Shown in pieces: positions 2-32,941 of a stretch of 32,941 nucleotides of DNA. Each line of letters starts with the position of its first letter. Positions within the stretch are counted from its first letter, which is position 1. The stretch comes from a virus. Lineage: Duplodnaviria; Caudoviricetes. The translations under genes and the position numbers were made by a program. The stretch is taken from positions 1 through 32,941 of the IMG/VR virus record IMGVR_UViG_3300035562_000032. The stretch is one strand, 5' to 3'. A model generated the notes under the pieces. The model had not been told where the DNA came from. It did not search any database and saw nothing but the letters and a program-made list of their open reading frames with translations.

Positions 2-271
2 ACCTTCGAAAATGCGGTAGTTATCCTGGATGAAGCCCAGAACGTTACCGCCAGCCAAATGAAGATGTTCCTGACCCGTTTGGGTGAGAACGTCACGGTA
101 ATCGTCAATGGTGACATAACCCAGTGCGACTTGCCGCGCGGCGTGAAGTCCGGCCTCAGCGACGCGATGGAGCGCTTCGAAGAGGATGAAATGATTGGCA
201 TCATCCGCTTTGATAAACAAGACTGCGTCCGCTCCGCCCTGTGCCAGCGCACGCTCAACGCCTACAGTTAA
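2..271 (+). CDS. phoH: PhoH-family ATPase, 3' end of a host gene (5' truncated by the window)
   Basis: Frame reads TFENAVVILDEAQNVTASQMKMFLTRLGE...NGDITQCDL...VRS, the PhoH Walker-B, LTRLG and GD-x-x-Q-x-D motifs. Confidence 0.9.
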   Translation, partial: TFENAVVILDEAQNVTASQMKMFLTRLGENVTVIVNGDITQCDLPRGVKSGLSDAMERFEEDEMIGIIRFDKQDCVRSALCQRTLNAYS

Positions 272-287
272 AACCAGCCTGTTAACC

Positions 288-311
288 AAAGGCCGCCTCG
301 GCGGCCTTTTT
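288..311. terminator. Bidirectional intrinsic terminator for convergent phoH and int; overlaps the att core
   Basis: AAA-GGCCGC-CTCG-GCGGCC-TTTTT hairpin with an A-tract on the left and a T-tract on the right. Confidence 0.8.
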
Positions 312-416
312 GTTGCCTTGAATATCAGTGCTGTCTATATAAAACAGGTGGTTAAGTTGCGCTACAGACAACTACAACCCCTAGAAAACTATCCATGTGT
401 GGACGCTATGTGGACG
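290..416 (+). repeat. Left junction (attL): core plus phage arm, first copy of a 127-bp direct repeat
   Basis: Identical base for base to 32815..32941; the upstream flanks differ (ccaa versus tact). Confidence 0.9.
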
Positions 417-2943: not shown

Positions 2944-3201
2944 ATGCACATGTATAAAACCGTAGGCCAAGAAATGAGAAATAGGGCTGATGCGGACTCA
3001 CGTAATTTTATGTTGAACAACGCACGTGTTGAGGCAAAGGCTGATGCCGCTGTTAGCTTCTCATCTCACCTTGACCGCCTCGCAACACATGCCGCCGTCA
3101 ATCACCTGTCTAGCGTTGAGATTATCGAACTACTGCGTCAAGAGTCGGAGAAATTTGACCATGAAGCCCGCGCGCATAAGCAGGGGGTTAATCATGGCTG
3201 A
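2944..3201 (+). CDS. P2 Orf80-like (DUF2732-like) early protein
   Basis: [25 protein letters not shown]...[11 protein letters not shown] pattern; GGAG RBS; synteny. Confidence 0.7.
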
Positions 3202-3493
3202 GCGTCCACGCGTAGAGATTAATAACGTGTTCGCCATCATGAAAGTGAGGGCGGGCGATTTAATTCTGTCTGATGTGATAACGGACAAAGAGTCAAAAGA
3301 AAAATATTACGCAACCAGAGCTATTTATTCGAATGAATTAAATCTGGTTTCTGACCTTATTAATCTTTCTGTGAAGCGTGGTGTTTATCTTAAAACGATT
3401 ACCAGCATTAGCGAAGTGATGAAGGAATCGCACCGCATTGCGGAATTAGGTCAGCAGGCACTCAATCAACTGAATAACGAATCGGAGCTATAA
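3194..3493 (+). CDS. P2 Orf81-like early protein
   Basis: 99 aa ORF overlapping the previous stop, GGGGG RBS, syntenic position. Confidence 0.6.
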
Positions 3494-3495
3494 CA

Positions 3496-3711
3496 ATGCC
3501 GGATTTAATGGATTTGGTGCAACAGCGCCAGCAGGAGACGCTCACCGCACAAATTAACGCGGCACGCATTAAAGCGGGAGTGTCTGCGTCAATTTGCGAG
3601 GAGTGCGACCAAGCTATCCCGGCCGCGCGTCGTGCAGCTTTTCCCGGTGTGACTCGTTGCGTGTCATGCCAAACCATCCACGAACCACAAACCAAGCATT
3701 TCAGAGGTTAA
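3496..3711 (+). CDS. TraR/DksA C4 zinc-finger protein (P2 Orf82-like)
   Basis: MPDLMD...CEECDQAIPAARRAAFPGVTRCVSCQ. Confidence 0.9.
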   Translation: MPDLMDLVQQRQQETLTAQINAARIKAGVSASICEECDQAIPAARRAAFPGVTRCVSCQTIHEPQTKHFRG

Positions 3712-3713
3712 TC

Positions 3714-4004
3714 ATGCTGCGCATTCCTATCGGCAAGGATTGGGTCGTCACCAGCGATGCCCATCAGTTCATTTTAAACCAGAAAAAACTGGTTAAAACC
3801 GGCAGCAAGAAGGGCGAGGTGTGGCTCGACGTAGTTGGTTATTACCCGACGGTCACGCAGTTGGTTTCCGGGTTGGTGCATTACCACGTTCGTGACTCAA
3901 CCGTCACCAGCATTGCCAGTTTGACCGCTGAGATTGAACGCATCGGCAAGCTGTGCCAAGAGGCTTTTTCCACTCACTACTCGGTTGAAAAAAATGACAA
4001 TTAA
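3714..4004 (+). CDS. P2 Orf83-like (DUF5405-like) protein
   Basis: IPIGKDWVVTSDAHQFILNQKK...GYYP motif; GAGG RBS. Confidence 0.7.
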   Translation: MLRIPIGKDWVVTSDAHQFILNQKKLVKTGSKKGEVWLDVVGYYPTVTQLVSGLVHYHVRDSTVTSIASLTAEIERIGKLCQEAFSTHYSVEKNDN

Positions 4005-4206
4005 GCAGCAATTTTTAATGGCGGTGACATCACATTTTTCATGGGGCGCTTATACCGCCGCTATTGTTTTATCAATCCTAAAAGTCATGGGTTTTGTTCC
4101 CCATGGCTCATGGTTGCAGGTCACGTCTCCGGTGTGGGGTGTCCCGCTGATTTTGTTCTTAATGGTGGCGTCGTTCGAGTGGCAGGCTAACCGGAAGCAA
4201 AAATGA
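3994..4206 (+). CDS. Small two-TM membrane protein (70 aa), accessory
   Basis: Two hydrophobic segments around ILKVMG..SWLQVTSPVW; overlaps both neighbours (ATGA overlap with A). Confidence 0.6.
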   Translation: MTIKQQFLMAVTSHFSWGAYTAAIVLSILKVMGFVPHGSWLQVTSPVWGVPLILFLMVASFEWQANRKQK

Positions 4207-6401
4207 ACAACGCCAGCGAACAAAGAGAGGCAAGGGGGCGTATAGCCCCCTCACCGCCGCCGCCATTCGCTACAACTTCTGGCGAGACGTTCGTCGGTGT
4301 TCATTCATGGAACGCCCCAAAACCCGCCATTGGCAAAGAAAGACCGCTTACCCGTGAGCAACACGCTCAGGGGCAAGCTGTTTTGCGTAAAATCCACTCC
4401 TTGCCGCATTTCCTCAGCAGTATCTTTTTGGGGCGTCATTCTTTCTTGCTGAAAGAGCAGGGGCTGCACGCCGCCAACAAATGGCTTGTACTCCAGTTTG
4501 AGCGCCGCATCTGGCCGCGCATTGAAATCGTTAACGATAAAAATGCGATGAACCTTAACGCATCGCTGTGCTTTATGGCGGAGGTGGACAACTATGCGCG
4601 CCTGCCGGGTATGGATGACAAGGAATTGCGGCGTTTTGCTGACCGCGTCGCCGGTCAATTGCTGCAAAATTATGACCGCTATTGCGAGGAGTTCATCGCT
4701 GAAAATAACGGGGATAATTCAGAGTTAATCAGCGCCTTTGTTCAGGTTGAATTCTATGGCCGTATCGCGCTTATGGCGCGGGCGTTTAACATTACTCCGA
4801 TGCATTGGCGCAAATATCTCAAAGGTAGTCTGGACACTACGTCAGCGGTTGCCAGTCTGTCACGGCTGGTTAACTCCGAGTGGTGGGAACGCCAATTGAA
4901 AGCGCAGCGCACCCGCTGGCGTGAAGCGTTGCTTATTGCAGCCGGTGAAGTGAACCTCAAAAAACACCCTTACGCGAGTAAGCAAGCTATCCGTGAGGTG
5001 CAGGCCCGGCGGCTTGCCAATATGGACTATCTGAAAGGGTGCGAGCTGGAGAACGTTGCTACCGGCGAGCGTGTTGACCTGATTGATAAAGTAATGGCCA
5101 GCATTTCTAACCCAGAAATCCGCCGCATGGAGCTGATGAGTACAATCGCAGGGATAGAGAAATTTGCCGCCAGCGAGAAGCATGTCGGCATGTTTATCAC
5201 TATCACCACCCCCTCGAAATACCACCCGACCCGCGTCGTCGGCAAAGAAGGGGCTGAAAAAGTCCAGTTTAACCACAACTGGGATTTAGAGGCTTTTTCA
5301 CCAAAAGACGGCCAGCGTTATCTTGTGCACATCTGGAGCAAGATGCGCACCGCGTTTAAAGACAACGATTTGAGCGTTTACGGCATGCGCGTCGTTGAGC
5401 CACACCATGACGGTACTCCGCACTGGCATATGATGCTTTTTTGCCAGCGAAAGCAGCGTCAGGACGTCATCGATATCATGCGTCGCTATGCCTTGAAAGA
5501 GGACGGCGACGAGCGAGGTGCGGCAAAGAACCGGTTTGAAGCCAAACACATGAACAAGGGCGGCGCGGCAGGGTATATCGCCAAATACATCGCTAAGAAC
5601 ATCGACGGTTATGCGCTCGACGGCCAGATTGACCACGACACCGGCAAGCCGCTGCGAGACATGGCTGCGGCGGTGACCTCCTGGGCGTCAACGTGGCGCA
5701 TCCCGCAGTTTCAGCCTATTGGCGTTCCCACAATGGGCGCTTACCGTGAGTGTCGGGCCGCTTGCCTTCGTGGCGTGAGCCTGTCCGATTCCTTTGATGA
5801 GCGAGTCGAGGCAGTGCGTGCGGCGGCTGATGCTGGAGACTTTGCCGCCTATATCGCCGGGCAGGGTGGCGCAAATGTTCCTCGTGATGTGCAGACCGTT
5901 CGCGTAGCCCGCAAGGTGGCCGATGAGCCGAACGCTTATGACGAAGAGGTGCAAAAGGTTGTCGGCATTTTTGCCCCGCACCTTGGCGTAGGTCATATCC
6001 ATGAAACCCGGTCAACAGAATGGCGCATTGTTCGCAAGGCTGTTGACGTTGACGTTAATCCTTTGACTTTAAAAAGCGCCTCCGGCGCGCCTCGGAGTCC
6101 TGTCAATAACTGTGGGGAGGTTCAGCGAGAACCTGATCCAGATATGCAGGTAGCGACGCCTGAGTATGTCACGGCGGTGATGAATTTGATTGAGGGTGGG
6201 GATGTTAGTTGGAATGACGCCGACGTTGCCAAGGTGTTTAGAAATGCATTAAGACAAAGGGGGAAAGGGGCTCAGCATAACCGTTCGTTAAATTTCCCAT
6301 GTGACGGGAGGGGTACCTTTAACAAAACTGACAAGGTAGTCACTCATAAGGATGGTAACTATTACTCACGATTAAGCTTAGCAAAACACGTTTTCGATTA
6401 G
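4203..6401 (+). CDS. A: Rolling-circle replication initiator A (HUH endonuclease)
   Basis: TITTPSKYH, VEPHHDGTPHWH (HUH) and GYIAKYIAKN (twin Tyr) motifs; contains ori. The C-terminus appears degenerate. Confidence 0.95.
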   Translation: MNNASEQREARGRIAPSPPPPFATTSGETFVGVHSWNAPKPAIGKERPLTREQHAQGQAVLRKIHSLPHFLSSIFLGRHSFLLKEQGLHAANKWLVLQFERRIWPRIEIVNDKNAMNLNASLCFMAEVDNYARLPGMDDKELRRFADRVAGQLLQNYDRYCEEFIAENNGDNSELISAFVQVEFYGRIALMARAFNITPMHWRKYLKGSLDTTSAVASLSRLVNSEWWERQLKAQRTRWREALLIAAGEVNLKKHPYASKQAIREVQARRLANMDYLKGCELENVATGERVDLIDKVMASISNPEIRRMELMSTIAGIEKFAASEKHVGMFITITTPSKYHPTRVVGKEGAEKVQFNHNWDLEAFSPKDGQRYLVHIWSKMRTAFKDNDLSVYGMRVVEPHHDGTPHWHMMLFCQRKQRQDVIDIMRRYALKEDGDERGAAKNRFEAKHMNKGGAAGYIAKYIAKNIDGYALDGQIDHDTGKPLRDMAAAVTSWASTWRIPQFQPIGVPTMGAYRECRAACLRGVSLSDSFDERVEAVRAAADAGDFAAYIAGQGGANVPRDVQTVRVARKVADEPNAYDEEVQKVVGIFAPHLGVGHIHETRSTEWRIVRKAVDVDVNPLTLKSASGAPRSPVNNCGEVQREPDPDMQVATPEYVTAVMNLIEGGDVSWNDADVAKVFRNALRQRGKGAQHNRSLNFPCDGRGTFNKTDKVVTHKDGNYYSRLSLAKHVFD
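6087..6106 (+). other. P2-type replication origin (A nick site, CG/GA at 6094/6095)
   Basis: GCGCCTCGGAGTCCTGTCAA matches the P2 ori sequence located inside gene A. Confidence 0.85.
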
Positions 6402-6696
6402 ATGAAGCATAAGTTACAGGTTTGTGGTGTAACGATTAGTATTGATTGCGTAACATTTATGACTTCAATAGCTTTTAAATGGACGTTTTACGCGCTATCG
6501 CGCATTTGCAAAGTAAAGAAAACAACTGGTACCGATTAAGACAAAAAATGGGCTACAATTTCTATCAGTATTGGTACCTCAGATTTTAGAAATGTTTCGA
6601 TATTTCAGTACCTAAATCTGTTAATGATCTCTTTCATACGTGATAACATTCCCGTTGTCTTACCCTATTTTATCCATTACACCATTAGGAGGCGCG

Positions 6697-7911
6697 GTGA
6701 AACCAGAACCTTGCCGAATGTTAGTTGAACAACTTCATAGTTGGTTGCATAGAAAAACCATATCCAGTTCAATCAGAAGGATTGCTACCTTACCTATCGC
6801 TTTGGCTACAGACATTGGTCTTAGTCGAGATGAGAACCAAGATAGGGTTGCAGTGATGAAGTATCGTTCACTGAATCGAAGCCATGATACGGTCGTTATC
6901 GCCCTGGCTGATGGAATGGGCGGGATGGTTGGTGGTGCAAATGCTGCATCTTTGACAATTTCATCTTTTTTTAGCTCAATGATAGAAAATGCTCATATTG
7001 ATTTGAGCGAGAGACTGGTCGATGCAGTCCAAAGTGCTACAAATGCAGTTTATAAACATTACCAAGGAGAGGGAGGGGCGACTTTATCTGCGGTTGTAAT
7101 CGAAGATGGTGATTCTATTACAGGCGTGAATGTCGGTGATAGTAGAATTTATGACATTTTCAACGGTTCTATTAATCAAATAAGTGAGGATGATACAGTT
7201 GCGGCTTTAGCTCAGAAATATAATGAAAAAAAACTGGAGCTAGATGGAAGGTTTAATCATGAATTGGTTCAGTTTATAGGCCTTGATGGTGCTTTAGAAC
7301 CTCATTTTTACATGATTCAGCCGGAGAAATTTAAAACTGTAATACTTACATCTGACGGCGCACATATAATCGGTAATGACAATATCATAAGGTTAATGGC
7401 GCATTCAAATAATATAGGTGTTTTTGTTAAACGCACCATCGATCTGGCTAATTGGTTCGGTGGTGGTGATAATTCATCAATTGCTGCGATTGATTTGTCC
7501 TATTTTAATAAGGGCAATGTTGGATCTCAAAATGGCGTCATAAATATTTGGGATCCATACGGTGAATTGCAAGTGGTGAATGTTTTTAGTGACGGTTCAC
7601 AAGATGCACCACTGACTGAAAGTAATGTTCCAGAGGTGCTTAAGGGTAGCTCGGAAGAGGCTTGTGAGAAACCAAAAGATTTAATTGGTGATGTTTGTGA
7701 ATCGAGCGCCCAAAAAGAATTACCAGAGCAATCGGATTTGGAAAATAGCACTCATCTCGCCAAAAAGAATAGTGGTTCTATGGAGGGAAAGAAAAGAATT
7801 CGTTTTAAAAGCAAACGGCAAATTACTACTCCTGCAGTTAAAGATAATAAGAAAAACAAGGTTCAATTAGATATTTCATTTCTTGATAAAAATGATGGTA
7901 AAAGCAAATGA
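6697..7911 (+). CDS. PP2C/PPM-family Ser/Thr phosphatase with a long disordered C-tail
   Basis: R-x-x-NQD, LADGMGG, GGATL, NVGDSRIY, LTSDG and GGGDNSS motifs. GTG at 6697 follows AGGAGG (alternative starts 6640 and 6718). Confidence 0.92.
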   Translation: MKPEPCRMLVEQLHSWLHRKTISSSIRRIATLPIALATDIGLSRDENQDRVAVMKYRSLNRSHDTVVIALADGMGGMVGGANAASLTISSFFSSMIENAHIDLSERLVDAVQSATNAVYKHYQGEGGATLSAVVIEDGDSITGVNVGDSRIYDIFNGSINQISEDDTVAALAQKYNEKKLELDGRFNHELVQFIGLDGALEPHFYMIQPEKFKTVILTSDGAHIIGNDNIIRLMAHSNNIGVFVKRTIDLANWFGGGDNSSIAAIDLSYFNKGNVGSQNGVINIWDPYGELQVVNVFSDGSQDAPLTESNVPEVLKGSSEEACEKPKDLIGDVCESSAQKELPEQSDLENSTHLAKKNSGSMEGKKRIRFKSKRQITTPAVKDNKKNKVQLDISFLDKNDGKSK

Positions 7912-8972
7912 AAAGAATGAGATTGCCAACTAGATATCAGCCAACTGAAAAATATAGTTCTGGTGGGTTTGGTGATGTTCTAATTTGTAAAGATACTCAC
8001 TTGGATAGACTAGTAGCTATAAAGTTTATAAAAGACTTGGAAGAAATGCCAAGAATGCAGGATGAAATTAATGCATTGATGACACTTCGCTCAAAGCATG
8101 TAGTGCAGCTTTTCGATATAATTGAAAAAGATGGGCAATTAGCTATTGTTGAGGAGTATATACCTGGCCCTGACTTGGTTACGTATACTGATTCAATTGA
8201 AAATGTGCTGGATTTTATAAAGGTAGTTTGGCAAATATCAGCAGGTATAGCTGAAATACATGCTCATGAAATTGTTCATCGAGATATAAAGCCAAATAAT
8301 ATCAAGTTAGATGGTGAGGGAATAGTTAAAATTTATGATTTTGGATTATCACGCAGTAATGATAATGCCAAAACCGTAGGTTTTAAGGGAACATTGATTT
8401 TTGCTGCTCCCGAATTATTTAAGGGGCGTGGAGCGGTTAGTTTTACTTCTGCTGTTGATACATTCGCCTTTGGAGTGACTGCGCTTTGCCTTGCTAAAAT
8501 TCCTCCACCTCAAGCGCTCAATACTGCAACGAAAATTTTAACAGAAAATCCATTCTTAGCCTCTCCTTTCAAAATACCTAGATCTATTCAAAATATCTTG
8601 TTTAAATGTTTGTCGGTTGAACCGGACTTACGTCCTGAAATGTCATCTGTAAGTTTGTTACTACAGCGACAGTTATTGAAAAACTCTCATCGCGCTCTAC
8701 TTATTCATAAAAATTCGCAACATATCTTAGATAAGGATAATAAAGGGGTTACTCTTAGACGTGTTGGAGTTGGAAGCGTAAGCGTTTCATACAATGGGTT
8801 TGAGTTTTTCATACAAGAATTAGATGGCGAGGTTACTGTAAATAATAGGACGCCTCGGGTTGATGATATTTTGCCAGAATCATGTGTGATAATAATTGGC
8901 AAAATTTCACGCCCATCGAGAGAGCGGAGTGCTATAACATTTGACATTTCCCATCCGGAGGTTGTTTTATGA
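7908..8972 (+). CDS. Hanks-type Ser/Thr kinase with a C-terminal FHA-like beta domain
   Basis: SGGFGDV, VAIK, alphaC Glu (QDEI), HRDIKPNN, DFG and APE motifs; ATGA overlap with the phosphatase. Confidence 0.93.
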   Translation: MKRMRLPTRYQPTEKYSSGGFGDVLICKDTHLDRLVAIKFIKDLEEMPRMQDEINALMTLRSKHVVQLFDIIEKDGQLAIVEEYIPGPDLVTYTDSIENVLDFIKVVWQISAGIAEIHAHEIVHRDIKPNNIKLDGEGIVKIYDFGLSRSNDNAKTVGFKGTLIFAAPELFKGRGAVSFTSAVDTFAFGVTALCLAKIPPPQALNTATKILTENPFLASPFKIPRSIQNILFKCLSVEPDLRPEMSSVSLLLQRQLLKNSHRALLIHKNSQHILDKDNKGVTLRRVGVGSVSVSYNGFEFFIQELDGEVTVNNRTPRVDDILPESCVIIIGKISRPSRERSAITFDISHPEVVL

Positions 8973-10036
8973 GTGGCTCTGACAGTGCAATGCTAGGTAA
9001 TCGCTACAATATAATTAGAAAAATAGGTGAGGGAGGGATGCAGAATGTATTTCTTGCGCATGATGATATTCTTAATAGAAATGTTGCACTCAAAACACCT
9101 AAAAATCAATCTGCTTTGAAACGGTTTCATCGAAGTGCAATACTATCTTCAAGAATAAATCATCCCAATGTTGCTAAAACCCTAGATTATTTTCATGCCG
9201 ACGGGTGTGAGTATTTGACAGAGGAATTTATAGATGGAGTCGATTTGGATAAGGCTATCCTTGGTAAATATAAATATGTTGATCCATGCTTGACGGCAAG
9301 TATTTTTCATCGTTTATCTAAGGCTCTATCCGCTTCGCACCATGCTGGTGTTATTCATCGTGACCTAAAGCCATCCAATATTATGATTACAGGTGGGATT
9401 AATGCCTCGGAAGTGAAAATAACAGATTTCGGAATATCAAAAATGGCTGGGGAGGAAATTGATGAGGCAGCTAAAAATGGCGATGCTTCAATTACGACCT
9501 CACAAACAGCGATGGGTGCATTACCATATATGGCACCGGAAATCATTGAGCGTCCAAAGGATGTTTCAACTCAAACTGATATTTGGGCTATTGGGGCTAT
9601 AATATATAAACTTTTAACTGGTGAGTATCCGTTTGGCAATGGGTACAGAGCTATTCCAAATATTTTACTCGGTACTCCAGTGCCTTATCCTGATTTCGTT
9701 TTAGGAAATCCACAGTTTAGAACGCTTTCAAAGCAAATAATCGATATTATCACTCTATGTTTCAGTAAAAATCCTGCAGATAGACCAACTGCAGATGATT
9801 TGGTACATATGTGTGGGAAACTTTGTTATAGCTTAGCGCCTAGGTATTTGGGGACGGTAGGAGATATTCCATATGGTTCATACGGCTTTATTTTTAGTGA
9901 AAATGGTGAGCGAGTATTTTTCCATTTCGATAGCGTATATGGAGAAACTTTAACTTCAGGTGATGAGGTTATACTGTCAAAATATTTAGGTGGAGGTTAT
10001 GACCGAGCTCATCCTGTCATTAAGGTCAAGGGATAA
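8969..10036 (+). CDS. Hanks-type Ser/Thr kinase with a C-terminal cold-shock (OB-fold) domain
   Basis: GEGGMQNV, VALK, HRDLKPSN, DFG, YMAPE and DIWAIG motifs; the tail has RNP1 YGFI and RNP2 VFFHF; ATGA overlap. Confidence 0.93.
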   Translation: MSGSDSAMLGNRYNIIRKIGEGGMQNVFLAHDDILNRNVALKTPKNQSALKRFHRSAILSSRINHPNVAKTLDYFHADGCEYLTEEFIDGVDLDKAILGKYKYVDPCLTASIFHRLSKALSASHHAGVIHRDLKPSNIMITGGINASEVKITDFGISKMAGEEIDEAAKNGDASITTSQTAMGALPYMAPEIIERPKDVSTQTDIWAIGAIIYKLLTGEYPFGNGYRAIPNILLGTPVPYPDFVLGNPQFRTLSKQIIDIITLCFSKNPADRPTADDLVHMCGKLCYSLAPRYLGTVGDIPYGSYGFIFSENGERVFFHFDSVYGETLTSGDEVILSKYLGGGYDRAHPVIKVKG

Positions 10037-10177
10037 GCGAGGATAGTGTTGTATGGATGCATTTGTTTGCATGGTTTCGCATGCTTTATGAGGCTGAATA
10101 AATACTAGCCATATCAAGACCGGGGCGGTTTTTATCATATCGTGCAACTGCATTAAAACCGACCCATGAAGCGGGCA

Positions 10178-10196
10178 GGCGTGGCGGGGATAGCAT
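10178..10196 (+). other. cos site (19-nt cohesive end)
   Basis: GGCGTGGCGGGGATAGCAT closely matches the P2/186 19-nt cos, at the expected position next to Q. Confidence 0.88.
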
Positions 10197-10337
10197 TGCG
10201 CGCAGGCACGTATTTAATTATCAGAATTGACGGCGTCAGCGCGTCGTGATGGCGTTTCGATATTCTGTTTTGATTTGCGGGTGCGTGCGGTGGGGTGGGC
10301 CGTGGTGGGCGGCCGAGAGCGTTTGCGGGTGGGTATG

Positions 10338-10366: not shown

Positions 10367-11398
10367 TCATTCGTCGTCGTTGTCGAGGGTGTATTTTTTA
10401 AAGCGGATGACCTCCTCGCCGATCCAGTCATTCACCTCGGTGATGCGCTGCTGTAGCGGCGTCAGCTCGTTGCGGACAAATACCATTGCAGCCTTCACCA
10501 CGTCACCCGTTGACCCGACGTTCTCCGGCTTACCGCCCATCAGTTGGTAGGGGATGCGGTGGGCGTCCAGCAGGTCGGCGGCGCTGACCTTTTTAATGTT
10601 AAAGAAATCATCCTTCGTCGCCACTTCGCTGAGCGGCACAATCTTGATGCCGTCGGGCTTTCCGTTCGGTGCGTAGAAAAACAGGTTTTTAAAATTCCCC
10701 ATGCCTTTCGAGTCGCTCATCGCATCACGCAGCGCTTCCACGTCGGTATTGTTCTGCGCAGCGTCCGTCACGTACATGATATAGCCCGCGTGTGCGCCGT
10801 TCTGGTAATACTTGCGGCGGAATAGCGTGGCGGACTCATTCAGCCAGGCTGAATTAAGTGCCGACAGGTACTCCGGCATTCCATACAGCTCTTGGTTGAT
10901 ATCCGGCTCCAGCAGGTGGAAAACGCTGTTAGCGGCGAACGGGTGCGGCTCCACGAACGATTGCACAAACCAATAAACGCCGGGTTCAACCCCGCGCCGG
11001 GTGTATTTGGCCGGAGAGGTCTCCAGCTTTAACAGCTTGCCGCTGACGCTCTGCCGCTTTTCCAAAAAGGCGTTGCCGAACACCAAATAATCCAGCACAA
11101 ACCGGCTGAAATCTTGCTGTGAAAGCAGGGGGTGCGTGATGTAGGTGCTCGCTAAAATATTGCGCTTTACATAAATCGGCGAGCTGTGGTGAACGGCAGC
11201 GCGCAGGCTTTTCGCCAGCCCGGAGAAGCTGATAGGCGGTTCAATCCATTTGCCGTTACCCACACACTCGGTGTAATCCAGAATTTCGCGCCGATCCAGA
11301 ACGGCAGACGGCTCGCCAAAGGTAAACGCCTGCATTTTCTGGTCAGGCTCTTTGACGGCCAGATTCTCTTTTGCCTTGTTGCGATTGCGTTTTCTCAT
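10367..11398 (-). CDS. Q: Portal protein
   Basis: AFTFGEP, HHSSPIYVKRN, QELYGMPEY and FRRKYYQNGAHAG motifs; 343 aa. Confidence 0.95.
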   Translation of the reverse strand: MRKRNRNKAKENLAVKEPDQKMQAFTFGEPSAVLDRREILDYTECVGNGKWIEPPISFSGLAKSLRAAVHHSSPIYVKRNILASTYITHPLLSQQDFSRFVLDYLVFGNAFLEKRQSVSGKLLKLETSPAKYTRRGVEPGVYWFVQSFVEPHPFAANSVFHLLEPDINQELYGMPEYLSALNSAWLNESATLFRRKYYQNGAHAGYIMYVTDAAQNNTDVEALRDAMSDSKGMGNFKNLFFYAPNGKPDGIKIVPLSEVATKDDFFNIKKVSAADLLDAHRIPYQLMGGKPENVGSTGDVVKAAMVFVRNELTPLQQRITEVNDWIGEEVIRFKKYTLDNDDE

Positions 11399-21704: not shown

Positions 21705-23852
21705 ATGACGAAAATTACTGAAAATGGCCGCTGGGAAAATGGTGTTTATCAAATTCAGCGCGGTGATGAGGTTTCGGGCGGGCGTGACGGTATCGCAAAT
21801 ATACAGGCGCAACAACTGGCAAATCGCACCCAATATCTGAAACAGACTATAGAAGGGCTTTCTATCGGTGAGCAGCCTTTTGATAATGAAGAAAAGGCAC
21901 AGGCAAAAATCAATGATGGCAGTATTCCATTAAATGCACGTTTTTCTGTGCGGATTGAGAACGCCGACGCATGGGTGGCTGAATATAAAAATATTAATGG
22001 CATAGCTACACCAACGGGAAGAACATTACCGACAGGTGAGCTTGTTAAAAAAGTAACGGAGTATTTTCACGTCAATGAGGCAATGAGTAATCTGTTGTTG
22101 GATATTGTTGACGATGATTATTTTTCTGTGTGGCGGCTGTTTGATAACGGTGCCTTTGGCACCATTAAAAGCTTGCTCTCTCCGCAGGGGGTTTTTCTTG
22201 ATGACCTGAAAATTACCCACGCAGGCGACAAGCCCGGCGTTATTTATCAGGATGCAGATGATTTTACCGTTGAGATTGTCAGCGAGTCAGGTGATGTTGC
22301 GCCGAAAGCATTACAAGGGCATGGCGTATTTTCAACTCAAACAACATCTGATGCATGGTTGCGGCTAGAAGACGTAGACGGATTTTTTAAAGACTATATC
22401 GATCTCGCTGGGAACATGCTCGGTGGCGGTAGTTCCGCGCAAGAGTTTGACCTTGTTGGTTACGACGCGCAAAACAAAGCCTATTCGCAGTCGGTGCGTG
22501 ACCGCTATAACGCAGATATTCAGCGACTTGTTTCCGCTTTAAATCATCTGGTGATATACAGCCAAAGCCTCGGCACACAACAGGAAGGACACCCGGCACT
22601 CAGCAAAGAACCTATCGACGGTTACGATAATCTGATGTTGGGTGACAGCGTGCGTCCGAAAAGTCGAACCGCCGCCGAGTTTGTTCCTGTCGGTGAGGCC
22701 GTTCTCAAGCCCTTGAAAGCCGTTGTTCAATCGGGAGATGGCAGCAATGTCCTTACTGATTCGGAAGTTGCCGCACTGGCCCCGAATGCAGGGAATGAAG
22801 GTGAAGGTGGTGCGGCGCTGGGGAATTTTCTGCGCAAGCTGTGGCTGCAAAGTAATTGTCTGGAGCGTGATGCGGCGCGTCGAGTTGTGGTATCAAGCAC
22901 CGGGGTGAACGGTCGAACCATTGAAGAACTTTCAAAAGGTGCAAAGCCTGAGCTGTATCAGCGTCCACTTCAAGCTGTACAGCAAGTAAAAGATATTGCG
23001 GCTCAAATGGGGGTAAGTTATTCCATAGCAGCCTTCGTTTTCCTCCAGGGTGAATGGAACTATAACGGTACACGTGGCGGCGTACAGACCAAAGATGGCT
23101 ATGAAGGAAAGTTAGAAACGCTATTCCCGAATATGACAGATGACATGGCGTATGGCATCGCGGGCCAAAAATCCCCGCCAGCGATATTCATGTACCAGAC
23201 TGGCGGCGGATATACCGTTGATAAATTCGATTTGGCGATTGGGATGGCGCAATGGGAGTTCTGCAAAAAGAATAAGAATGCATACCTTGTCACTCCGGCT
23301 TACCCATATCCAGATAAAGGCGGCCATTTAACAAGTAATGGCTACCGCTGGATGGATATGCAGTTTGCCAAAGTTATGCACCGTGTATTGAACGAGGGGC
23401 AGGGATGGGAGGCGCTCGGCCCTATTCGAATCATTCGTATTGGTCGGGTGGTTTATGTTCTGTATCACGTACCAAGCCCGCCGCTGCAATTCCGGCCTGC
23501 CTACGTGGGAAGGGTGCCGACAATGTATGCCGATAAGGGATTCAGGGTCACGGACTCAACAGACTCAGTCGTCCCAATAGAGTCCGTTGAGATTGCGGCT
23601 GACACCATTATAAAAATCACTCTTGCGGCTGAGCCTATGGGGGCGGCGAAATTATGGTACGGCGATAAAACGGCTCATAACGGCAACGGAAACATATTTG
23701 ACAGTGATTCTTTTGCATCACTGGCTAATTACGAATATCAGGCAGGTTCAGGCCAAACAGCGGATGAAAATATTGCCGAACTGGTTGGTAAACCTTATCC
23801 ATTAAATAACCCATCGGTGCAATTTTGTGAGCCGATCGAAATCGGAGTGTAA
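21705..23852 (+). CDS. Putative tailspike/receptor-binding protein with an SGNH (SASA-like) carbohydrate esterase domain
   Basis: Fibre-type N-terminus W..GVYQI...V.GG.DGIAN.QAQQLANRT.YLK; SQS (22560), QGE (23046) and D-x3-H (23313-23327) esterase blocks. Confidence 0.7.
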   Translation: MTKITENGRWENGVYQIQRGDEVSGGRDGIANIQAQQLANRTQYLKQTIEGLSIGEQPFDNEEKAQAKINDGSIPLNARFSVRIENADAWVAEYKNINGIATPTGRTLPTGELVKKVTEYFHVNEAMSNLLLDIVDDDYFSVWRLFDNGAFGTIKSLLSPQGVFLDDLKITHAGDKPGVIYQDADDFTVEIVSESGDVAPKALQGHGVFSTQTTSDAWLRLEDVDGFFKDYIDLAGNMLGGGSSAQEFDLVGYDAQNKAYSQSVRDRYNADIQRLVSALNHLVIYSQSLGTQQEGHPALSKEPIDGYDNLMLGDSVRPKSRTAAEFVPVGEAVLKPLKAVVQSGDGSNVLTDSEVAALAPNAGNEGEGGAALGNFLRKLWLQSNCLERDAARRVVVSSTGVNGRTIEELSKGAKPELYQRPLQAVQQVKDIAAQMGVSYSIAAFVFLQGEWNYNGTRGGVQTKDGYEGKLETLFPNMTDDMAYGIAGQKSPPAIFMYQTGGGYTVDKFDLAIGMAQWEFCKKNKNAYLVTPAYPYPDKGGHLTSNGYRWMDMQFAKVMHRVLNEGQGWEALGPIRIIRIGRVVYVLYHVPSPPLQFRPAYVGRVPTMYADKGFRVTDSTDSVVPIESVEIAADTIIKITLAAEPMGAAKLWYGDKTAHNGNGNIFDSDSFASLANYEYQAGSGQTADENIAELVGKPYPLNNPSVQFCEPIEIGV

Positions 23853-23857
23853 TTACT

Positions 23858-24601
23858 ATGGTCATGGTCATTAAATCAAATGTTGCCGGTGCGTCAATTT
23901 CAAAACCAGATGGCTGGAATCCGCCGTTTAGCACTGAGGGGTTGAAATATGCCAATATTTTCGGGCGTGGAAATCTGACCGCTAATTTAGCACCCGGCGG
24001 TGTACCTGCAATAGCCTATGGAAACCCAACTCAGAAAGGTGAGGCTTTCGAGTTTTCGACTAATAATTATTTGGATACTCGCGTGCCGACAAGCGAGAAA
24101 GCCACACTGATTTCAATCGCCACCAATACCGACTCAACGCAGACGGGACGTTGCTTTTTAATTTCGAGCTTCAAAGGTAGCGTTGATGCAGGAAAGTCGC
24201 TGTTAACACAAGGGTCCCCACCATCAACGCTTTTTATGTATTCACACTATAAAGGAACCGGCGCGGATGGCAGTCCATGGAGTAATGCATACAGTACGAG
24301 CCTCAATACGCTGAGCACATACCGCAGCCCGGCATTTTTCTATGGCAAAGATATGGGTAACGCACTGCACCTCGGTGACCTGACAAACGCGAAAGCAAAA
24401 GTTTCGCCACCGGGGCTGCCGATAACCTCTTTCGCAAACCCCGCGCTCACTTATCTGATTGGCCAGAGTAGGGTTGAAGGTTCACCAAAACACCTCCAGT
24501 ACGCCGACCTGATTTTTGACCGCGCATTGAGTGATGAAGAGTTGATGCAGATTTACCAGTATTTCCAGATGTATTACAGCCGTCGCGGGATCCACATTTA
24601 A
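23858..24601 (+). CDS. Hypothetical tail-associated protein, possibly a ConA/LamG-like beta-sandwich
   Basis: 247 aa, beta-rich; C-terminal IFDRALSDEEL resembles the LamG-3 terminal motif; 5 nt after the tailspike stop. Confidence 0.55.
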   Translation: MVMVIKSNVAGASISKPDGWNPPFSTEGLKYANIFGRGNLTANLAPGGVPAIAYGNPTQKGEAFEFSTNNYLDTRVPTSEKATLISIATNTDSTQTGRCFLISSFKGSVDAGKSLLTQGSPPSTLFMYSHYKGTGADGSPWSNAYSTSLNTLSTYRSPAFFYGKDMGNALHLGDLTNAKAKVSPPGLPITSFANPALTYLIGQSRVEGSPKHLQYADLIFDRALSDEELMQIYQYFQMYYSRRGIHI

Positions 24602-24641
24602 TTAGCCATTGGGGCACTTATAAGATTGTGGAGGTCTGAGA

Positions 24642-25805
24642 GTGAATGATAAAAAATTCAGCGCGTTAATCACTACGGCTGGCGCAGAAAGACTGGCAAA
24701 TGCAGCGGTAACAGGTATGCCGGTTGCTATATCGGAAATGGCCGTCGGCGATGGCGGCGGCGCACTGCCAATACCGACAAAAATCAGCCGTGGTCTGGTG
24801 GGTGAACATTATCGCGGCGCACTGAACAAGCTGGTGATAGCTGACATTGACGCCAGCGTCATCGAGGCTGAAATGATTATGCCGCCACAAATCGGCGGGT
24901 TCTGGCTGCGTGAGTTGGCGCTCTATGCTGATGATGGTGAGTGTATTGCCGTCGGCAACATGCCTGAAACCTATAAGCCGCAGCTTTCCGAGGGGGCTGG
25001 ACGCTTTCAGATTATCAGGGTGCAGTTGAAAATCAGTAGTACCGAAGCGGTAGAATTGATTGTTGATCCGTCCGTTATTTTAGCAACGTCCGAGGACGTC
25101 AGGGCCGCTGAAAATACTGCGAAGGATTATGCAGATGAGCAGCTTAGCGAGCACGCGCATTCACGCAACCACCCTGATGCTACGCTGAAAGAAAAAGGAT
25201 TTACTCAGCTTAGCAGCGAAACGGACAGCGATAGCGAAGCGTTGGCCGCCACCCCGGCCGCCATTAAAAAGGCCATTGCGGCCGCAGTACGCGAGAGTTG
25301 GGAGTTATCAAACCCCGTCGGCATCAGTCATTTCTTTTTTGCCAACGTCGACCCTAACGCCCGCTGGCCGTGGTCAAAGTGGGAATATACCGGCGAGGGG
25401 AGGACGGTGCGTATCGCCAAGCGGGATGGCTCCAATGTGGGGCAGCCCGGCGGCAGTGATACCGTGATAATCAGCCGCGCAAATTTGCCTGCCGAAAAGA
25501 TTGCGGTGAGTGGCACGGCCCAAGATACCGACCTTGGCACCAAGAGAACTAGGGCGGCCGGGAAGCACGTTCACCATGGCACGCCAAAGCGTAATAGCAA
25601 TTATGAACTGGGTGGGAATAACCGCGTATTCTTTGACCCGTATGCCGAAGGTGATACGGATGAAGCTGGCGAGCATGACCACGAAATGGACCTCGGGACG
25701 CACGGTCACAATGTTACAGGGGAAACGGATGCGCTGGGTAGCGGTCAGGCTGTCAGCGTTGTCGAAAGCCATGTACTGCAAATGTGCTGGCACCGCATAG
25801 CATAA
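24642..25805 (+). CDS. H: Short tail fibre H
   Basis: P2 H N-terminus (MAVGDGGG, GGFWLRE, VGNMPETYKP), fibre repeat HPDATLKEKGFTQLSS..ALAATP, three HxH motifs; GTG start after GGAGG. Confidence 0.85.
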   Translation: MNDKKFSALITTAGAERLANAAVTGMPVAISEMAVGDGGGALPIPTKISRGLVGEHYRGALNKLVIADIDASVIEAEMIMPPQIGGFWLRELALYADDGECIAVGNMPETYKPQLSEGAGRFQIIRVQLKISSTEAVELIVDPSVILATSEDVRAAENTAKDYADEQLSEHAHSRNHPDATLKEKGFTQLSSETDSDSEALAATPAAIKKAIAAAVRESWELSNPVGISHFFFANVDPNARWPWSKWEYTGEGRTVRIAKRDGSNVGQPGGSDTVIISRANLPAEKIAVSGTAQDTDLGTKRTRAAGKHVHHGTPKRNSNYELGGNNRVFFDPYAEGDTDEAGEHDHEMDLGTHGHNVTGETDALGSGQAVSVVESHVLQMCWHRIA

Positions 25806-32814: not shown

Positions 32815-32941
32815 AGGCCGCCTCGGCGGCCTTTTTGTTGCCTTGAATATCAGTGCTGTCTATATAAAACAGGTGGTTAAGTTGCGCTACAGACAACTAC
32901 AACCCCTAGAAAACTATCCATGTGTGGACGCTATGTGGACG
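32815..32941 (+). repeat. Right junction, attP-like: second copy of the 127-bp repeat, running off the window
   Basis: Identical to 290..416, including the terminator/core and the phage arm sites. Confidence 0.9.

What the first reader, a model, noticed from the sequence alone, without database searches (positions are those of the whole stretch)
6697..10036. Phosphatase-kinase-kinase operon in the P2 anti-phage hotspot: a candidate phosphorylation-switch defence or lysogeny-control system
Seen: three visibly AT-rich genes between A and cos, joined by two ATGA overlaps (7908-7911 and 8969-8972). They encode a PP2C phosphatase, a Hanks kinase with an FHA-like tail and a Hanks kinase with a cold-shock domain; catalytic HRD/DFG and metal-binding Asp motifs are intact. 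Known: the A-cos interval of P2-like phages (tin/old in P2) is a hotspot for anti-phage genes. From memory, and to be verified, kinase-kinase-phosphatase (KKP; PfkA/PfkB/PfpC) toxin-antitoxin-like modules have been described in Pseudomonas Pf prophages, so the architecture may not be wholly new. Inference: the kinases are jointly toxic and held in check by the phosphatase until infection tips the balance, causing abortive infection or controlling prophage induction. The trigger and targets here cannot be read from the sequence.
Basis: partly seen in the sequence, partly recalled or inferred. Interest (0 to 1): 0.9.

Follow-up and report, generated by a model that had tools for sequence, protein, structure and literature searches.

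The report
Serratia prophage KKP kinase-phosphatase defence module
These three genes in a P2-like prophage, likely of Serratia, are a new copy of the already described KKP system, in which a phosphatase likely restrains two jointly toxic kinases until an invading phage tips the balance and growth stops; the copy is ordinary apart from a conserved, unexplained motif on the phosphatase tail.

Summary
Three intact, AT-rich (38% GC against 54%), ATGA-coupled genes lie between A and the portal gene of a P2-like prophage whose named relatives are Serratia-type. They are pfpC-pfkB-pfkA, the KKP module of Guo et al. 2024 (PMC11341870), which already reports over 1200 clusters, including P2-like prophages. 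All sequence criteria are met in substance. The cold-shock kinase is about 57% identical to P. aeruginosa PfkA (hand count), with GGM/HRD/GFI in register. The three proteins are 46/54/68% identical to an E. coli allele that carries both cloning primers of the phage-tested KKP-EC039. Likely mechanism, by homology: PfpC keeps the PfkA-PfkB pair dephosphorylated; a phage protein inhibits or destabilises PfpC, and kinase activity arrests growth. Lysogeny control is shown only for Pf phages and is less likely here. New details: no Serratia row in the published catalogue, and a conserved Q-L-x-I-x-F motif ending PfpC's disordered tail (99 of 120 homologues, shuffles 0.27). It is more likely a docking strand than a beta-clamp motif; its partner is unknown. 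The scan's earlier notes showed no KKP on other DNA. New member of a known kind.

The parts
6697..7911 (+). pfpC: PP2C-type Ser/Thr phosphatase, the predicted antitoxin, 404 aa; folded domain about residues 1-296, then a disordered Lys-rich linker
   Evidence: PP2C_2 33.7 bits on residues 1-288; Stp1-type HMM E 2e-30, below its cut-off; metal-binding Asp residues invariant in 107 homologues; model pLDDT mostly 80-98 up to about residue 290 and 50-64 after residue 300; 46% identical to the L002 allele
7864..7881 (+). conserved C-terminal motif of PfpC, residues 390-395 (QLDISF), partner unknown
   Evidence: pattern in the last 40 aa of 99 of 120 homologues, shuffles mean 0.27; 63 of 131 further distant representatives, shuffles mean 0.30
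7908..8972 (+). pfkB: Hanks kinase (residues 1-256) with an FHA-fold tail (about 257-350), 354 aa
   Evidence: Pkinase E 4e-39; model mean pLDDT 94 with an all-beta tail; atlas structure matches to FHA-containing clusters TM 0.77 and 0.73; tail corresponds by eye to the published PfkB FHA construct
8969..10036 (+). pfkA: Hanks kinase with a cold-shock domain carrying GFI at 306-308, 355 aa
   Evidence: Pkinase E 7e-46 and CSD E 4e-5 on the tail; GGM 22-24, HRD 130-132 and GFI 306-308 sit one residue from the MPAO1 positions 23-25, 131-133 and 307-309; 172 of 300 positions identical to MPAO1 PfkA by hand count
6687..6692 (+). ribosome-binding site AGGAGG before the GTG start of pfpC
   Evidence: sequence; the GGAGG core is conserved in four relatives
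4203..6401 (+). gene A (replication), left flank; its C-terminus is replaced after about residue 692
   Evidence: Phage_GPA; 92% identical to a 769-aa Serratia relative over residues 1-692, no good match beyond
10143..10206 (.). conserved block right of the cassette, at the expected place of the P2-type cos region
   Evidence: run of invariant columns in 5 aligned loci; the hotspot is described as cos-proximal, between gpA and gpQ; naming the block cos is partly recalled
10367..11398 (-). portal gene Q, right flank
   Evidence: Phage_portal; named 90% cluster members are Serratia phage portals, apart from one metagenome label

Best explanation
This is a KKP (PfpC-PfkB-PfkA) module in the defence slot of a P2-like prophage, and it likely protects the lysogen by phosphorylation-driven growth arrest when a lytic phage infects. 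Shown here: identity, intactness and position of the three genes. Inferred from experiments on homologues: PfkA and PfkB pair up and are toxic only together, needing the CSD (GFI) and FHA-fold tails. PfpC keeps them and their targets dephosphorylated in the resting lysogen. A phage protein that binds and inhibits or destabilises PfpC (T4 Gp59 for the E. coli allele, RepG4 for the Pseudomonas allele) releases kinase activity onto many replication, translation and division proteins, and the infected cell stops growing and yields few phage. The ATGA overlaps likely fix the ratio of the three proteins. The trigger and the phage range of this allele are not known. My inference for the conserved tail motif is that it is a beta-strand that docks PfpC onto a partner, most likely one of its own kinases.
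For: Gene order, lengths (1215, 1065, 1068 bp) and domains fit the paper's search definition. PfkA aligns without gaps to MPAO1 PfkA over 300 positions, 172 identical by hand count, with tested motifs in register. Both pfpC cloning primers of the phage-tested KKP-EC039 match L002 and L005 exactly, 2 of 163 loci. L002 lies in the same A-Q slot and is 46/54/68% identical to the window proteins. The window PfkA falls in an 18-row enterobacterial clade (support 97/100) with catalogued members. Catalytic residues are invariant or nearly so in 120, 120 and 107 homologues. [quoted passage not shown] The A-Q slot is a known defence hotspot.
Against: There is no experiment on this allele. No sigma-70 match lies upstream of pfpC, and matches over the region are at chance level (13 against 13.8 in shuffles), so expression in the lysogen is not shown. 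The three autophosphorylation sites mapped on MPAO1 PfkA (T34, S37, T271) are D33, N36 and A270 here (by eye). Tested KKPs had no effect on lambda, EEP or M13, so protection is selective. In vitro inhibition of PfpC by Gp59 was only modest.
Confidence: 0.85

Rival explanations
1. The main job is control of this prophage's own lysogeny, or of a co-resident element, by phosphorylating H-NS or a phage regulator, as KKP does for Pf4/Pf6.
For: Shown for the Pseudomonas allele through MvaU, PfiA and RepG4. The authors propose that it extends to other prophages. The contig holds both a host junction and an attP-like end, so the prophage probably excises.
Against: The prophage has its own C/Cox-type switch: an HTH repressor at 1488-1787 and Cox at 1913-2188. 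The slot is swapped rapidly among related phages, which fits accessory defence cargo. MvaU is a Pseudomonas protein (recalled). No lysogeny effect was reported for non-Pf KKPs in the parts of the paper I read.
Confidence: 0.15
2. The PfpC tail motif is a beta-sliding-clamp-binding motif that tethers the phosphatase to replication forks, where it meets phage replication proteins.
For: It starts with Q-L, ends in F at position 6 and lies in a disordered C-terminal tail, like hexameric clamp motifs Q-phi-x-[L/M]-x-[F/L]. Both known triggers are linked to phage replication. 18 of 120 homologues fit the canonical pattern exactly.
Against: Position 4 is Ile in 78 of 99 and never Leu among close homologues, and Ile in 46 of 63, Leu in 4 of 63 among distant ones; the canonical motif wants Leu or Met. 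Distant members drift to Q-L-x-I-x-I, or lose the Gln while keeping the alternating hydrophobic pattern, as a beta-strand would. Deleting the tail did not affect neutralisation.
Confidence: 0.1
3. The module is only an addiction cassette that stabilises the prophage, or is silent cargo, with no useful defence in its host.
For: It has toxin-antitoxin logic and an unstable antitoxin. No promoter was recognised.
Against: All three frames are intact. A 94-98% identical copy is on record in S. marcescens. Homologues from four other prophages defend. Defence loci in these hotspots are replaced before they decay.
Confidence: 0.07

Closest known systems
KKP (PfkA, PfkB, PfpC) of P. aeruginosa Pf6 and other prophages; Guo et al. 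2024, PMC11341870
   Same: Same gene order, sizes and domains; GGM/HRD/DFG/GFI motifs in register; PfkA about 57% identical to the MPAO1 protein over 300 positions; prophage location, including P2-like phages.
   Different: Likely Serratia host, a genus with no row in their catalogue; PfkB has GGF where MPAO1 has GGM (as do 86 of 120 homologues); the three mapped PfkA phosphosites are not kept; untested.
KKP-EC039-type allele (L002, E. coli VG12A2 prophage; L005)
   Same: Same A-Q slot of a P2-like prophage; 46/54/68% identical proteins; same tail motif; this allele type carries both pfpC primers of the module that blocks T4 and is triggered by Gp59.
   Different: PfpC is only 46% identical, so Gp59 sensing may not carry over. 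The link to the tested strain rests on two primer matches, not on the full sequence.
Stk2 of staphylococci
   Same: Hanks-type kinase causing abortive infection.
   Different: Single host-encoded kinase, no phosphatase, Gram-positive (as contrasted in PMC11341870).
PD-T4-6 and MADS (Mad6) kinases
   Same: Their PADLOC models hit the kinase domains.
   Different: Hits cover only the kinase fold; the NCBIfam Mad6 scores are 103 and 126 against a cut-off of 460; the cassette has only these three genes.
PknB/Stp1 (PrkC/PrpC) housekeeping kinase-phosphatase pairs
   Same: PP2C gene directly upstream of a Hanks kinase.
   Different: Scores far below cut-off; no transmembrane-strength hydrophobic segment (maximum 19-residue hydropathy 0.9-1.5); two kinases; phage cargo.

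Membership tests
KKP | Three adjacent co-oriented genes in the order PP2C, Pkinase, Pkinase | tested here: met
   definition
KKP | Each gene between 900 and 1300 bp | tested here: met
   1215, 1065 and 1068 bp; definition
KKP | Phosphatase domain PF13672/COG0631 with catalytic Asp motifs | tested here: met
   33.7 bits against cut-off 24 on residues 1-288; the full-length scan reported no hit; D49, D72, D220, D258 invariant in 107 sequences
KKP | PfkA: kinase plus cold-shock domain with GFI/GFA motif | tested here: met
   CSD E 4e-5 but below the gathering score; GFI at 306-308 against 307-309 in MPAO1
KKP | PfkB: kinase plus the C-terminal domain that the authors call FHA | tested here: met
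   tail corresponds by eye along its length to the printed MPAO1 FHA construct; predicted structure TM 0.77 and 0.73 to FHA-containing clusters, under the atlas bar for naming a family
KKP | A Pfam PF00498 (FHA) HMM hit on PfkB | tested here: inconclusive
   no hit on the window tail or on two E. coli alleles; FHA is not among the 25 of 49 families shown for 120 homologues, so the HMM seems to miss the whole family
KKP | HRD and DFG intact in both kinases; GGM-type Gly loop | tested here: met
   PfkB has GGF, the majority state (86 of 120)
KKP | Gram-negative host, prophage or mobile-element location | tested here: met
   P2-like prophage integrated after phoH; named cluster relatives are Serratia or close kin
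KKP | Joint kinase toxicity neutralised by the phosphatase | not testable with these tools
   shown for the MPAO1 and Shewanella alleles
KKP | Protection against lytic phage, triggered through PfpC | not testable with these tools
   shown for five other alleles; trigger Gp59 shown for one
KKP | Lysogeny control by phosphorylating an H-NS-like silencer | not testable with these tools
   shown only for Pf phages
Hexameric beta-clamp-binding motif | Q-phi-x-[L/M]-x-[F/L] | tested here: not met
   the window has Ile at position 4; 18 of 120 and 14 of 131 homologues fit
Stk2 | Single stand-alone kinase gene | tested here: not met
   three-gene operon
MADS (Mad6) | NCBIfam NF047741 above cut-off | tested here: not met
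   103 and 126 bits against 460
PknB/Stp1 housekeeping pair | Membrane-anchored PASTA kinase; family HMMs above cut-off | tested here: not met

The most novel reading that the evidence does not exclude
The conserved Q-L-x-I-x-F motif at the end of PfpC's disordered tail, which I found undescribed in the KKP papers searched, tethers the antitoxin phosphatase to the host beta sliding clamp. KKP would then be a replisome-mounted sensor: phage replication proteins arriving at forks, or competing for the clamp, would disable or displace PfpC and fire the kinases. This would explain why both known triggers are linked to replication.
Probability: 0.1. Interest if true: 0.6.

Novelty: new member of a known kind. 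Interest (0 to 1): 0.2.

Why it matters
As a system it adds little: KKP is described, tested in five alleles and already catalogued in P2-like prophages. This copy extends it to Serratia-type phages and gives a divergent allele (46% PfpC identity to the T4-sensing type) for asking whether the trigger is conserved. The one new handle is the family-wide tail motif on PfpC. The published work calls this tail a domain of unknown function and dispensable for neutralisation, yet six residues at its end are kept across very divergent members, after a linker of about 90 residues that is not. Finding the motif's partner would show how the antitoxin is positioned or turned over, which is still open in the KKP mechanism.

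Tried and rejected
Complex prediction of the PfpC tail (residues 370-404) with PfkA, PfkB and part of the E. coli clamp gave no answer (scores 0.00 and 0.01); it is no evidence either way. Fold searches with the full PfkB model returned only kinases, so they did not test the tail. The Atlas feature search gave no usable hit for the PfkB tail and only scores of 0.78 or less for the PfpC tail. No RNA holder was listed for the operon. The single-protein scan of viral contigs confirmed no relative; the alignment scan did. PADLOC 2.0 returned no KKP-named model among the hits shown; those hits are generic kinase matches. DefenseFinder was not available. The promoter scan was at chance level. The only Rfam match was in the host flank. 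I rejected the longer GTG start at 6640: relatives and the ribosome site point to 6697, although one database record has the 423-aa form and others a 397-aa form. MPAO1 and the other tested alleles were not held as sequences, so those comparisons are by eye or through primers.
Full report
Observation. The three genes are there as described: 6697-7911, 7908-8972 and 8969-10036, all on +. The GTG at 6697 follows AGGAGG, and four relatives start at the same codon. Both overlaps read ATGA. The operon is 38.1% GC against 54.2% for the rest of the window; third-position GC is 0.26-0.29 against 0.59 and 0.66 for gene A and the capsid gene. It lies between gene A and the portal gene, the interval described as a defence hotspot of P2-like phages (PMC9122126, passages; PMC13586616, passages). 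Both kinases hit Pkinase strongly, the third protein has a weak CSD hit, and the first hits PP2C_2 above cut-off once its tail is trimmed. HRD, DFG and the catalytic Lys are kept and are invariant or nearly so in 120 homologues of each kinase. Four phosphatase Asp residues are invariant in 107 homologues.

Context. The window is a whole P2-like prophage: integrase, HTH repressor, Cox, A, portal, terminase, tail genes and Ogr. Bases 1-271 match the 3' end of host phoH. A 127-nt stretch at 290-416 is repeated exactly at the contig end, 32815-32941, after a different upstream sequence. I infer that the assembly held both the integrated form and an attP junction, so the prophage probably excises; a tandem double prophage would look the same. 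Named members of the 90% clusters of the backbone proteins are Serratia, apart from one Gibbsiella and some metagenome labels. All three cassette proteins have 94-98% identical copies labelled S. marcescens.

Identity with KKP. Of PMC11341870 I read parts 1-5 of 11 of the main text and the bioinformatics section, parts 3, 4 and 6 of 7 of supplementary file 1, part 1 of the data file and term searches. Its alignment figure and the source-data file were not readable. The paper defines KKP as adjacent PP2C, Pkinase, Pkinase genes of 900-1300 bp, with an FHA tail on PfkB and a CSD with GFI/A on PfkA. It reports over 1200 clusters, more than 90% in prophages including P2 and P4. The window meets this definition. 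The supplement prints MPAO1 PfkA: it lines up without gaps with window residues 12-311, and I count 172 of 300 identities by hand. The motifs the authors mutated lie at 23-25, 131-133 and 307-309, against 22-24, 130-132 and 306-308 here. The tail of the middle kinase corresponds by eye along its length to their FHA construct. Pfam FHA hits neither this tail nor two E. coli alleles, and is not among the 25 of 49 families shown for 120 homologues. The predicted structure does match FHA-containing clusters at TM 0.77 and 0.73, below the atlas bar for naming a family. The canonical phosphothreonine-binding Gly-Arg and Ser-x-x-His residues (recalled) are not evident in the tail, so it may be a protein-interaction FHA fold rather than a phosphopeptide reader.

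Relatives. 18 of 5426 E. coli genomes hold a DNA match annotated with the same three products; the three I opened lie between A and the portal gene. One, strain S40, is named in the paper's catalogue, though with different coordinates, so the match is likely rather than proven. Of 13 viral loci with full-length PfkA matches, all 13 also had pfpC and pfkB upstream, and 7 lay between A and the portal gene. Four of those 7 (L005, L008, L010, L011) carry genome ids listed in the catalogue. Both primers used to clone pfpC of the phage-tested E. coli allele match L002 and L005 exactly and none of the other 161 loci. L002 is 46, 54 and 68% identical to the window proteins. In a tree of 34 rows, the window PfkA falls in an 18-row enterobacterial clade with support 97/100 that includes these catalogued members. 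The first Serratia occurrence in the data file is in the genome list, not the KKP table, and the main text has none. A paper search for Serratia with these terms listed 10 of 40 papers, none on this topic.

Mechanism. Shown for homologues: the kinases are toxic only together, need the CSD and FHA tails, and interact; PfpC neutralises them through its catalytic motifs. [quoted passage not shown] T4 Gp59 binds and modestly inhibits PfpC of the E. coli allele. RepG4 promotes degradation of the Pseudomonas PfpC (PMC12328805, passages). Inferred for this allele: the same switch, giving growth arrest on infection (0.85). Against it or open: no experiment, no promoter above chance, and the three mapped PfkA phosphosites (T34, S37, T271) are D33, N36 and A270 here. 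Lysogeny control is shown only for Pf phages, through MvaU and PfiA (PMC13048266, passages). This prophage has its own repressor/Cox switch, and the slot is exchanged rapidly among related phages, so I rate lysogeny control as the main role at 0.15.

The one new detail. PfpC ends in a disordered Lys-rich linker (pLDDT 50-64) whose mean conservation is 0.08, against 0.42 for the catalytic domain. Near its end, Q390, L391, I393 and F395 are kept in 84, 80, 84 and 93% of 107 aligned homologues. The pattern Q-[LIVMF]-x-[ILMV]-x-[FL] occurs in the last 40 residues of 99 of 120 homologues; shuffles give a mean of 0.27 (maximum 3), and the kinase controls give 0 of 120 and 1 of 117. It occurs in 63 of 131 new representatives at 50% clustering, shuffles 0.30; that profile included the motif, so this count leans upward. 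14 of 18 loci examined have it. I chose the pattern after seeing the sequences. It resembles the hexameric beta-clamp motif Q-phi-x-[L/M]-x-[F/L] (PMC11139829 and bioRxiv 10.64898/2026.05.27.728225, passages). However, position 4 is Ile in 78 of 99 and never Leu, only 18 of 120 fit the canonical form, and distant members drift to Q-L-x-I-x-I or lose the Gln. That alternating pattern fits a docking beta-strand better. My rough odds: docking on the module's own kinases or on PfpC itself 0.5, a protease or adaptor signal 0.2, the clamp 0.1, other 0.2. [quoted passage not shown] The word clamp does not occur in either main text, and a combined search listed one unrelated review. The library lacks most subscription papers, so the motif may be noted elsewhere.

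Other kinase systems. PADLOC and NCBIfam hits to PD-T4-6, Mad6, PknB and Stp1 cover only the shared folds, and the NCBIfam scores are far below cut-off. None of the three proteins has a strongly hydrophobic segment. Stk2 is a single gene.

Verdict. A real, intact, horizontally acquired cassette; a new Serratia-type member of the known KKP family in a slot where KKP was already known. Interest 0.2. The tail motif is worth a small experiment.

Noticed in passing
window 290-416 and 32815-32941: An exact 127-nt repeat follows different upstream sequences: the host phoH end and its terminator on the left, phage DNA after ogr on the right. It suggests integration just downstream of phoH and an attP junction in the same sample, so an excising prophage.
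   Followed up: partly
window 6279-6401: Gene A is 732 aa against 767-772 aa in its closest relatives; it matches them to about residue 692 and then ends in an unrelated AT-rich tail, so the cassette's left junction seems to lie inside the 3' end of A.
   Followed up: partly
window 21705-25805: The tail-fibre locus has a 715-aa fibre (phrog_4201), a 247-aa unknown protein (phrog_4390) and then a second gene with a P2-type tail-collar N-terminus (387 aa): two fibre genes where P2 has one (recalled).
   Followed up: no
window 73-266, - strand: Rfam Ysr251 antisense RNA match (188 bits) inside the host phoH fragment.
   Followed up: no
window 3026-4206: Two DUF5405 genes flank the TraR/DksA zinc-finger gene, and a 90-aa hydrophobic ORF at 3934-4206 with no credible family hit sits directly before A.
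   Followed up: no
window 8750-8972 (PfkB tail): The FHA-fold tail seems to lack the usual phosphothreonine-binding residues (recalled), while Y295, N312, G331, R340, D346 and P350 are invariant in 120 homologues and the last residues are unstructured in the monomer model; they may form the PfkA-binding surface.
   Followed up: partly
L006 3779-4920: pfpC aligns in two pieces (residues 1-156 and 159-296) while both kinases look intact, suggesting a frameshift or sequencing error in the antitoxin of that record.
   Followed up: no
L084 1-7032: A Pseudomonas MAG has a full PfkA but only a partial PfkB match (residues 133-354) and no PfpC match upstream: a possibly decayed KKP.
   Followed up: no
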